From contig CAXIUT010000110.1 in NCBI GenBank assembly GCA_964035545.1, positions 462 through 64,461 of the forward strand: a stretch of DNA of 64,000 nt, written 5' to 3'. The translations under genes and the position numbers were made by a program. The notes under the pieces were generated by a model. It worked only from the letters and a program-made list of their open reading frames with translations. It did no database searches and had not been told where the DNA came from. Shown in pieces: positions 40,601 to 43,600 of this stretch (position 1 is its first letter; each line of letters begins with the position of its first letter). This DNA is from Bugula neritina. Lineage: Eukaryota > Animalia > Bryozoa.

Positions 40601-43600
40601 CCAACCCACGCCTCCCATCCTCCAGGGACGCGTGGCTGCACAGACAACGGAAAGCGCCAGGCTATGGCTAGGTTGCCACATGGGTACAGTGAGGCGTTCC
40701 GCCACACAGACCACGACGCCCGCCTAAATAGAGCAGGCTGTCGTGAGGTACCACGGGCGGCGAAGACCGCCCCTGCTCAGCCACTCCAATAGAGGGCTGA
40801 CACGCCCCCGGAGGCTGTCCAGAGCCTCCGCGCCAAACCTGTATGGGCTGGTAACGTTAGGGAGCTGCCGAAGCTCCAGAAAAGCCTTCCTGGGGTGGTA
40901 GCCGACGTGTACCGAGCGAAACAGGAAGGGCGACGACACAGAAGTAAACAACGGCGACAGGGATGCGCCGAGTTACGGCTGTACTGTCAACGCTGGAGCT
41001 CTCTGCGGGTCGGGCCAGATGGTCTGCTGACCATGACTTTGGCCGCCAACAGCAGACAGCCAGCCAGGAAGAGGGTCGTCTGCCCAGTTGCCATCCGCCG
41101 GAAGTTGATACAAGACACCCACGAGAAGACTCACGGAGGCATCCAAGGGGTGGTCACCAAGCTACAACTCCGGTGGTACTGGCCCACCATGGAGCGAGAT
41201 ATTCGGCGCAGAGTGAGACGGTGCAAAGTCTGCCAGACCAACAAGCATAGCCGTCTCCCTGGTGAAGCGGGGCGGCAGACGCATTGTGCGAGAAGGTCTC
41301 GGCAAACGGAGACTGTCATCCTGGCCGGAAACACCTCCATGACACGTCAGGAAGACTTGGCGAGGCGAGTAAGGCCACTTCCGTCCTTGGAAGTGCGCCC
41401 ACCGCCCCCAACGTCAAGCCTGCCATCACCACCACTTCTGGAACCAGAAACGGGTCCGGAAGTGCAAAAACCCCCCGTGGGAGGGGCTCCGCAAGGAGAT
41501 ACCAACGTAGGAACAACCATCACAAACAGGCTGGAAAAACCACCCGTGAGACATAACAGTCCACGGGTGAGCACACCGCCTCCCACAGTGACGACGCCTC
41601 CAGGACCACACACTAGGCATCTTCCAGTGTGTCTCAGAGACTGTGTACGTGACCGCGGTATAAGCGGCAGTAACGAAAGTCTAGAGAGGCCTCGCATGGG
41701 AAAACAGGCAAAGAGACGTGGGAGTTGTGAAGACCACGGAAATCTCAACTTTTGCCTCGGCGGAATCTCACACGAGATTCATCCGCTGGAAGTGAAAAGC
41801 CCTAGTCACGTTTTACAACCACGCTGTCCGGTCTTTTCCTACGTTGATGCAGTCAAGAGTAGACGTGCCACTAAACAGTAATCATTTACCGCTCTCATTC
41901 CAAAATGTCTTACTATTCTGGATCGAAGGGTGAGTTAATTATGTTTTTGGTACGATAACTAGACTGCATCAGTCAGCTTTAGCTACACTAGCTAGCGAGC
42001 TGGAGATTTGATAATGATAAACAGTGGTGGGAATACACGTCGACTTTGATTTTAAATAATCTGCCATAGCGAGTGTGTTCTCCATCAACTATTCATTAGC
42101 CTGAATCTCACGAGTGTAAATGAACAGAGTACCGGTCAGGCTGTACACGCCGACGGTACCTCAGTGTATAATCTTTAACACTGCTACTCTTTCAGATCAC
42201 ACTCGAGTGACCACCTCCCGGTCACGGGACCAGCCAACCTCTCTGCCTATGGAAGAGGAACCTGTAATGGAGAATGGCGTACCCGTGGTGCTTTGTCGAC
42301 GACACCGCTGGGTGTCACCCACGACGGAAAGGAGAATTGAGGAAGCCTGGGGACCCAGCAGACCCCACCGAACCTGCCAGGTCTGCTTCGAGGAGTGCCC
42401 ATCACACCGCTCTCTGCGTCTACATGTAGACGCCCATTTTCTACTCCACTTCTGCCTATGCGGGTTCCACGACGTATACCCGTATCCCGTGACAGTCCAT
42501 AAGCTGAGCTGCTTCGCCGGAGAGAACCATACTGTTGATGAGGACAGTTTCCCCCAATACCTGGATGCCATCAAGCCAGTCATCAGGAAGGCTATCACCC
42601 TGGCCGCCCTAGCGTCAGGGTTCCAAGTACTGCTGTTATCCGCCCGCCATAAGTCCCCTATGGTTCAGGGCCCGTCTCCTACCCCCGTTAACCCTAGCAA
42701 CACCCCCGAAGTAGAAGGAACAACAATACCCCCTCTAACAGAGACTACTACAACCCCGCCAAGGCCTAGCCAGCTGGCTAATGTAGAAGAGCGGCTTGTA
42801 AGACTACAAGCCGAGTTCACACAACTTGCCCCTGACTCGCTGGATACGACGACAGGTCTATACCAGTTGAAGGACTCAGTGGGGCGACTGAAGAGGCGGC
42901 TACGTGCCCGACAGGCTCGACACAAAGCACGCTCGCTACAAGAGTCAGAGTCCACCCAATGAGTATGCCTGGGGTAGGCACCTTTCGTTGAGCTGTATTT
43001 CGTCTGGAAAGTGACGAGTGCTCCGACATTGGCCCGCGTGCTGGTAAGCACCCTCTCTCTTTATAGCTGACTAGATGTGTGTGTTCGATCACCCTGTTTA
43101 CTTCTGTATATAAATGTTGTCGTGCTCAACTATTTCTCTTCTTCCTCTTTGTGGGTTTACTTATGTATGTTTTTCTTTTTGGATTATTGTATAGTTTTTC
43201 TTTATGTGTTTTTTTGTATTGTGTTATCAGAAAGTAGGGCTTTCTGCTGGGGGGGCGGTGTAGTGAGGCATGCAAAGTACAAATACGGGAATCGCCCTCT
43301 CTCTATTCTGGGAATACTAAGACCCTTATGTAGCAACCAATTAGCAGCACCGGAAGATATGCTTCCGACTCACGTGACACTTCCCGGGTTATTAACATTT
43401 TATCACGTTTTTGTAAGCGGAGGCTTGAAGGAGAAACATGTATTAGTAGTTGACTGATGTATAGGATAATTTGATGTGATGTTTATTTTATGCTTTATTG
43501 TGGATAATAAATATAATTACTCGACAGCTACCCTAGTAATTGCTAGCAGAATAACCAACTAACTATACGCAAGTAGATAACTCACGCACAGTAATTGCAC

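What the first reader, a model, noticed from the sequence alone, without database searches (positions are those of the whole stretch)
41905..42962. LTR retrotransposon carrying an intron-containing zinc-finger/coiled-coil accessory gene in the env position
Seen: 24 nt after the pol-frame stop, a 25-nt ATG exon with a consensus donor (AAGG|gtgagt) splices in frame to a 767-nt exon behind ctctttcag. The product is an intact 263-aa protein with a C2H2 finger, a second Cys/His cluster, a Pro/Thr linker and a basic coiled coil. It has no signal peptide or transmembrane segment, so it is not Env. Established: sense-strand introns are normally lost during retrotransposition unless unspliced RNA is packaged, as for subgenomic env mRNAs. 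Inference: the element keeps a regulated spliced accessory protein despite having lost RT and integrase. It could be a trans-activator, an RNA export factor or an anti-silencing protein.
Basis: partly seen in the sequence, partly recalled or inferred. Interest (0 to 1): 0.8.

Follow-up and report, generated by a model that had tools for sequence, protein, structure and literature searches.

The report
Spliced zinc-finger gene in Gypsy retrotransposon
A young, defective jumping gene of an invertebrate carries, where retroviruses keep their envelope gene, an intact extra gene for an unnamed double zinc-finger protein that is likely made by splicing and likely helps the element control its own expression.

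Summary
A recent 5.36-kb Gypsy-type element (LTRs differ at 3 of 353 bases) has gag and protease but lacks RT, RNase H and the integrase core. It carries an open 3' gene. The predicted 266-nt intron is skipped exactly, GT..AG, in one contig of a public run (28 letters on the short side; run kind unknown). A relative (P0016) joins the first 14 Gag residues to the same acceptor, so this is env-style subgenomic splicing with two donors. That removes the 'retained intron' paradox. The protein has 83 close and about 60 distant unnamed relatives. Zinc ligands and the C-terminal helix are conserved; the linker is not. It folds confidently as a two-finger module with no solved match overall, and its C-terminal helix is predicted to dimerise. 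A distant element with intact integrase encodes the same module behind pol, and bryozoan genes carry it too. Best guess: a nuclear self-regulator that binds the element's DNA (45%); Rev/CERV-like RNA export is the main rival (30%). Spliced non-Env third genes are known; this family was not found in print, and the scan had no earlier look-alike. Function, expression and dN/dS are untested.

The parts
38245..38248 (+). Left target-site duplication (GTAG)
   Evidence: Same 4 bases at 43612-43615
38249..38601 (+). 5' LTR, 353 bp
   Evidence: 3 differences from the 3' LTR
38603..38620 (+). Primer-binding site starting TGG (tRNA-Leu type recalled, not tested)
   Evidence: Sequence
38637..39587 (+). 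gag, 316 aa, open, one CCHC knuckle
   Evidence: 126 relatives
38637..38679 (+). Gag-leader exon (14 codons + 1 base) ending at donor AAG|GTGAGA, phase 1
   Evidence: Donor scan; residues 1-14 of relative P0016 map to 38637-38678 and its residues 15-260 to 42195-42941. This joint was not seen in run X1
39719..41881 (+). pol remnant: protease, one stop at 40790-40792, integrase zinc-binding (H2C2) part; RT, RNase H and integrase core missing
   Evidence: residues 152-307 of P0326 map to 40856-41329, where the match ends
41849..41967 (+). Predicted RNA stem-loop that pairs the second donor
   Evidence: z -4.4, 0 of 200 shuffles; second best of 88 windows, several others are similar
41905..41929 (+). 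Short ATG exon ending at the second donor AGG|GTGAGT, phase 1
   Evidence: joint 41929 to 42196 in run X1
41930..42195 (+). 266-nt GT..AG intron holding branch-like site, pyrimidine tract and the shared acceptor
   Evidence: present but more diverged in relative P0002 (30 of 87 translated positions alike, against 170 of 250 in the exon)
42196..42962 (+). Main coding exon of the accessory gene
42276..42662 (+). Folded module: Trp-bearing helix, finger 1 (C2H2, 42375-42437), finger 2 (CxC..H..C, 42453-42512), strand and three helices
   Evidence: Model pLDDT 94.7, pTM 0.88; conservation; fold searches
42756..42944 (+). C-terminal helix, predicted to self-dimerise, ending in an Arg-rich tail
   Evidence: 77% identity across relatives; dimer score 0.40 against best control 0.01
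43249..43258 (+). Polypurine tract
   Evidence: Sequence
43259..43611 (+). 3' LTR, 353 bp, followed by the right target-site duplication 43612-43615

Best explanation
This is the open third gene of a Gypsy-type LTR retrotransposon, likely expressed by env-style splicing, and its double zinc-finger, predicted dimer-forming product likely acts in the nucleus on the element's own DNA to switch on or protect its transcription. Shown: gene anatomy, conservation pattern, the two joined forms in public sequence, the same module behind an intact integrase in a distant element. Inferred: the LTR transcript is spliced from the Gag-leader donor (38679) to the acceptor (42196), giving a protein that starts with 14 Gag residues; a second donor (41929) serves a short exon, perhaps from an internal start, and is predicted to be hidden in a stem in full-length RNA. 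Unspliced RNA is what gets packaged, so the acceptor-bearing intron is inherited; copies that lose it arise but would lose the Gag-leader route. Guessed: the finger pair binds element DNA, the helix dimerises it and the basic tail adds nuclear import or nucleic-acid contact.
For: Splicing: the only GT..AG joint among all 14 joints listed for 38600-42330 is exactly 41929 to 42196; P0016 joins Gag residues 1-14 to exon 2 at the predicted codon; 23 of 83 alignments start at the acceptor and only 2 earlier. Protein-level constraint: fingers 76% and C-terminal helix 77% identical across relatives, linker 30%; eight zinc ligands kept in 90-97% of rows and in 37-52 of 52 distant rows. Element-borne: P0077 fuses this element's pol tail to the gene; P0326 runs RNase H, integrase, linker, finger module in one frame. 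DNA binding: finger 1 matches classical C2H2 fingers; the finger pair overlays, weakly, on DNA-bound tandem fingers of Kaiso, SALL4 and ZBTB38 (Z 3.4-3.9, rmsd 2.9-3.7, 51-59 residues); distant relatives keep Arg in both recognition helices (R in 35, 39, 34 and 38 of 52 rows). Dimer: score 0.40, best of 3 controls 0.01, contacts agree 100%, pLDDT at least 76; that mark was reached by 21 of 30 solved microbial homodimers and 0 of 23 monomers, by 17 of 29 eukaryotic homodimers (animals 7 of 16; 1 of 7 without an older relative) and 0 of 30 monomers.
Against: No binding or expression data. The X1 joint rests on one contig with 28 letters on its short side, below the tool's 31-letter bar, in a run of unknown kind; the Gag-leader joint is absent from X1 and is seen in 1 of 202 family proteins. 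In the window's own subfamily finger 2 has prolines and no Arg in its recognition helix, unlike a good DNA-binding finger. All structure matches have Z under 5. No telling motif is shared between the LTR and the region before the short exon. Five of seven listed exon-2 differences between this copy and X1 change a residue, as expected of drift after insertion, so this copy itself shows no selection.
Confidence: 0.45

Rival explanations
1. The protein is a Rev- or CERV-like RNA factor: made from spliced RNA, it multimerises on the unspliced genomic RNA and lets it escape splicing and leave the nucleus.
For: Same logic as CERV of Cer1: third gene in the env slot, spliced, N-terminus shared with Gag, cysteine-rich domain, leucine-zipper helix, required for export (PMC10309623). 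The best conserved part is a self-associating helix with an Arg-rich tail outside the predicted interface. The RNA around the second donor and the intron folds better than shuffles.
Against: No export-signal pattern outside the folded core in this protein; no likeness to CERV emerged in any search (not compared directly); stable RNA windows occur across the element.
Confidence: 0.3
2. The module began as an integrase tail or particle-associated tether, for example guiding integration to chosen DNA or chromatin, and is now supplied as a separate spliced protein.
For: In P0326 it lies in frame behind integrase, the place where chromodomains sit in chromoviruses (recalled).
Against: About 500 low-complexity residues separate it from integrase there, another member of that cluster is called as a separate 409-aa protein, and the window's element has a stop before it and no integrase core.
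Confidence: 0.13
3. The gene works in autonomous relatives but is only a passenger in this defective family, open because the family is young; or it is a captured host zinc-finger gene with no use to the element.
For: LTRs differ by under 1%; the RT-less, integrase-less pol frame is also nearly open; named relatives are annotated bryozoan genes.
Against: The bryozoan proteins are only about 27-32% identical over the module, so no recent capture; conservation is domain-shaped across relatives 49-92% alike.
Confidence: 0.12

Closest known systems
CERV of the C. elegans LTR retrotransposon Cer1 (PMC10309623; abstract, passages, sections 9 and 15 read)
   Same: Non-Env ORF between pol and 3' LTR, made from spliced mRNA, N-terminus shared with Gag, Cys-rich possible zinc domain, helical multimerising part, nuclear.
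   Different: CERV is 517 aa from 5 exons with a G-protein-like domain and a C4-type loop, and is reported to have no homologue outside nematodes; here about 265 aa, two exons, C2H2 plus CxC-H-C fingers. CERV's export role is shown; nothing is shown here.
Non-Env ORF3s of bdelloid rotifer LTR retrotransposons (PMC5408684; passages read)
   Same: Invertebrate LTR elements with a third ORF that is not Env, said to be typically expressed from spliced messages; a non-autonomous family that keeps its ORF3 (TelKA2n) is mentioned.
   Different: Those ORF3s are Env-like, GDSL, DEDDy, coiled-coil or membrane proteins; the word 'zinc' does not occur in that text.
Retroviral regulators from spliced RNAs: Rev/Rex/Rem (export), Tat/Tax/foamy-virus Tas (activation) (recalled; Rev also described in PMC10309623)
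   Same: Small nuclear regulators encoded 3' of pol; an internal start with a short exon would resemble foamy-virus tas.
   Different: No sequence or fold match found; the element has no env.
Tandem C2H2 fingers of SALL4, Kaiso/ZBTB and CTCF
   Same: Finger 1 sequence pattern and a weak overlay of the finger pair.
   Different: Second finger is CxC..H..C, the linker is hydrophobic rather than the canonical one, and the pair is embedded in a larger fold with no solved match.

Membership tests
Ty3/Gypsy LTR retrotransposon (non-autonomous copy) | Paired LTRs with TG start, target-site duplication, PBS and PPT | tested here: met
   the 5' LTR ends GA rather than CA, one of the 3 differences
Ty3/Gypsy LTR retrotransposon (non-autonomous copy) | gag, protease, then RT-RNase H before integrase | tested here: inconclusive
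   gag, protease and H2C2 present, RT-RH and core absent; the order RH then IN is seen only in relative P0326, whose pol matches the remnant
Ty3/Gypsy LTR retrotransposon (non-autonomous copy) | Clade placement by RT phylogeny | not testable with these tools
   No RT in the element and no DNA of autonomous relatives obtained
Envelope glycoprotein (Env) | Transmembrane anchor and fusion-protein domain | tested here: not met
   Hydropathy maximum 1.55; no Env family hit; zinc-finger fold
Env-type subgenomic splicing | Donor near the gag start spliced in frame to an acceptor 3' of pol | tested here: met
   In relative P0016; donor present in this copy but its joint not seen in X1
Classical C2H2 zinc finger | C-x2-C-x12-H-x3-H with finger fold | tested here: met
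   Finger 1. Finger 2 is a variant
CERV family | H, M and G-protein-like domains, nematode range | tested here: inconclusive
   No G-like domain in the models, but CERV's sequence was not compared directly
Rev-like export factor | Binds unspliced RNA and drives its export through an export signal | not testable with these tools
   Arg-rich tail present; export-signal patterns only inside the folded core
Self-targeting transcription activator or anti-silencer | Sequence-specific binding to the element and raised transcription | not testable with these tools
   Only indirect:

The most novel reading that the evidence does not exclude
An undescribed Gypsy lineage of invertebrates is 'complex' like HIV or foamy viruses: it encodes its own nuclear zinc-finger regulator from a new domain family, expresses it through two alternative donors (one hidden by RNA structure), keeps it under selection even after losing RT and integrase, and has given the domain to bryozoan hosts as domesticated genes.
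Probability: 0.25. Interest if true: 0.75.

Novelty: new variant of a known kind. Interest (0 to 1): 0.52.

Why it matters
How animal LTR retrotransposons get intron-bearing genomic RNA past splicing control, and how they resist silencing, is largely open; CERV is the one worked-out element-encoded regulator I found in the searches. A second, unrelated, compact and well-folded regulator family gives a direct test: what does it bind, and what fails without it? It also shows that 'env-position' ORFs in invertebrate elements can be nuclear regulators, and offers a possible case of domestication in bryozoans.

Tried and rejected
No whole genome is held and the genome index did not complete, so no copy DNA, dN/dS, copy count or host name. 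No loci from metagenome contigs or viral contigs (could not run). No RNA holder listed: no evidence either way on expression. Full-length fold was poor (pLDDT 54) and its search empty. The domain model has no Foldseek match at E 0.001 in PDB or the viral library and no Z of 5 or more among 48,161 chains; that does not show the fold is new. Atlas searches gave only unnamed clusters and generic C2H2 leads. The 'longer' search found nothing, yet a 1460-aa fusion turned up as a cluster member, so that blank was not absence. Unspliced start at ATG 42120 rejected as the main form. Env rejected. Recent host capture rejected. An in-frame 51-nt middle exon (41879-41929) is possible on paper but has a weak acceptor and no joint. 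No homology to the outer element's 3' ORF (probability 0.7%). Depth dip at 42100-42224 in X1 not interpreted. Literature: searches (0 papers with LTR retrotransposon + ORF3 + C2H2 zinc finger + spliced) showed no description of this family; mollusc and annelid LTR surveys (PMC6238403, PMC8556966, passages only) never use 'zinc', 'ORF' or 'splic'; PMC11952523 (passages) concerns unspliced small ORFs. Repbase, subscription journals and supplements were not seen and may hold the family.

Full report
Setting. The finding lies in a 5.36-kb element, 38249-43611, with 353-bp LTRs that differ at 3 positions, a 4-bp target duplication, a primer-binding site and a polypurine tract. It is inserted in the LTR of a second, minus-strand Gypsy element that has RT, RNase H and integrase, in an AT-rich genome with helicase-like host exons. 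The host is not identified; the only named relatives of the gene are bryozoan, so an invertebrate is inferred. The inner element has an open gag (316 aa), a protease and the H2C2 part of integrase, but no RT, RNase H or integrase core.

Observation. The two exons, splice motifs and 263-codon frame are as described. The motif match alone means little: 2 good donor matches in the element against 1.31 expected, P=0.39. What matters is that both matches, 38679 in gag and 41929, are in the phase of the acceptor at 42196, and each has outside support.

Evidence for splicing. One public run, X1, holds the element. Its contigs show a joint that skips exactly 41930-42195 with GT..AG ends. In the narrower lay all 14 joints were listed and this was the only one with GT..AG ends. 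It rests on one contig of depth 843, against about 50-240 for most other joints, with 28 letters on the short side, under the tool's 31-letter bar. The run's kind is not on record; contigs up to 59 kb suggest DNA, in which case the joint means intronless copies made from spliced RNA (inference). Separately, relative P0016 has residues 1-14 matching the Gag start (86%) and residues 15-260 matching exon 2 from the acceptor codon: the Gag-leader splice, caught as a continuous gene. It is 1 of 202 family proteins checked, and that joint is not in X1. Of 83 relatives, 23 begin to align at residues 23-26 of the unspliced ORF, at the acceptor, and only 2 earlier; the rest start further in. Relative P0002 retains the intron, more diverged than the exon (30 of 87 against 170 of 250 translated positions), and its called start Val-Ser falls at the donor position, which suggests the donor is kept (inference).

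What this changes. The gene is best read as an env-type subgenomic unit with two donors and one acceptor. Unspliced RNA is packaged, so the intron is inherited; it also carries the acceptor that the Gag-leader splice needs, which would explain why intronless copies look like a minority (inference; depth is not a copy number). A predicted stem at 41849-41967 pairs the second donor (z -4.4); it ranked second of 88 windows with several others close, so it is only a lead.

The protein. 83 relatives at 49-92% identity, all unnamed, and 121 cluster representatives by profile, about half of them distant. Identity by region among the close ones: fingers 76%, C-terminal helix 77%, Pro/Thr linker 30%; eight zinc ligands are kept in 90-97% of covering rows. 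In 52 distant rows four ligands are invariant and the others are kept in 50, 50, 48 and 37. No Pfam family fits the window's protein beyond a sub-threshold coiled-coil hit; 7 of 60 aligned members hit generic C2H2 models. The 129-residue module folds with pLDDT 94.7 and pTM 0.88. Its middle overlays weakly on tandem finger pairs (Z 3.4-3.9); no structure matches the whole. The C-terminal helix is predicted to self-dimerise (0.40 against best control 0.01; calibration counts under the best explanation), with the Arg-rich tail outside the named interface. A heptad pattern near the C-terminus is seen in 22 of 61 distant relatives against 3.4 expected. There is no membrane segment.

Age and context. 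P0077 fuses this element's pol tail to the gene. P0326, 1460 aa, runs RNase H, full integrase, a long linker and the finger module in one frame. Its pol matches the window's remnant (34%, E 2e-19) and is 70% and 58% identical to RNase H and integrase pieces attached to gag relatives, but 26% to the outer element. So the module is an old 3' part of this lineage, including elements with an intact integrase. Annotated proteins of Watersipora subatra and Bugula neritina carry one or two copies at about 27-32% identity; whether they are elements or domesticated genes was not checked.

Mechanism. I commit to a nuclear self-regulator acting on the element's DNA (0.45): tandem fingers with conserved Arg in distant members, a dimer helix and a basic tail. 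Against it, finger 2 of this subfamily has lost those residues and no shared LTR motif was found. The CERV-like export reading (0.30) has the best precedent: CERV is spliced, shares its N-terminus with Gag, has a cysteine loop and is needed for genomic RNA export (PMC10309623). Integration tether (0.13) and passenger (0.12) remain. Five of seven listed exon-2 differences from X1 alter a residue, so this one copy is drifting; selection in the defective family is untested.

Novelty. Spliced non-Env third genes are known in Cer1 and in bdelloid elements, so the kind is known. Nine literature searches did not show this family; Repbase, subscription journals and supplements were not seen. The scan had no look-alike by sequence and only analogous antisense genes by words. 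Verdict: real; a new variant of a known kind; interest 0.52.

Noticed in passing
window 31829-32371 (-): The outer Gypsy element also has a third ORF behind pol: about 180 aa with three CCHC-like knuckles, its ATG directly after a pyrimidine tract and AG, so probably spliced too. Unrelated to the zinc-finger gene.
   Followed up: partly
window 31068-44354: Nested insertion: the studied element splits one LTR of the outer element; run X1 holds the uninterrupted LTR form (joints 38234/38244 to 43612). The outer integrase frame is interrupted near 33090-33733 by a repeat that also occurs at 63044-63691.
   Followed up: partly
proteins P0325, P0223, P0272, P0327, P0328, P0331: Annotated bryozoan proteins carry the module, two of them doubled, and two Bugula genes have neighbouring locus numbers: possible domestication.
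   Followed up: partly
window 48493-61164 (+) and 1-7400: Exon-like pieces of an NFX1-type zinc-finger helicase gene (name recalled; AAA_12 hit), with a 90-98% identical duplicate about 54-55 kb apart.
   Followed up: no
window 52329-53765 (-): A further gag-protease fragment resembling the outer element's gag.
   Followed up: no
window 39508-39627: The most stable RNA window of the element (z -4.6) spans the gag stop, a possible recoding signal.
   Followed up: no
proteins P0240, P0249, P0254, P0257, P0287, P0290, P0294: Seven of 61 distant relatives share an acidic Leu-rich motif in their long N-termini, like an activation or export signal; the window's protein lacks it.
   Followed up: no
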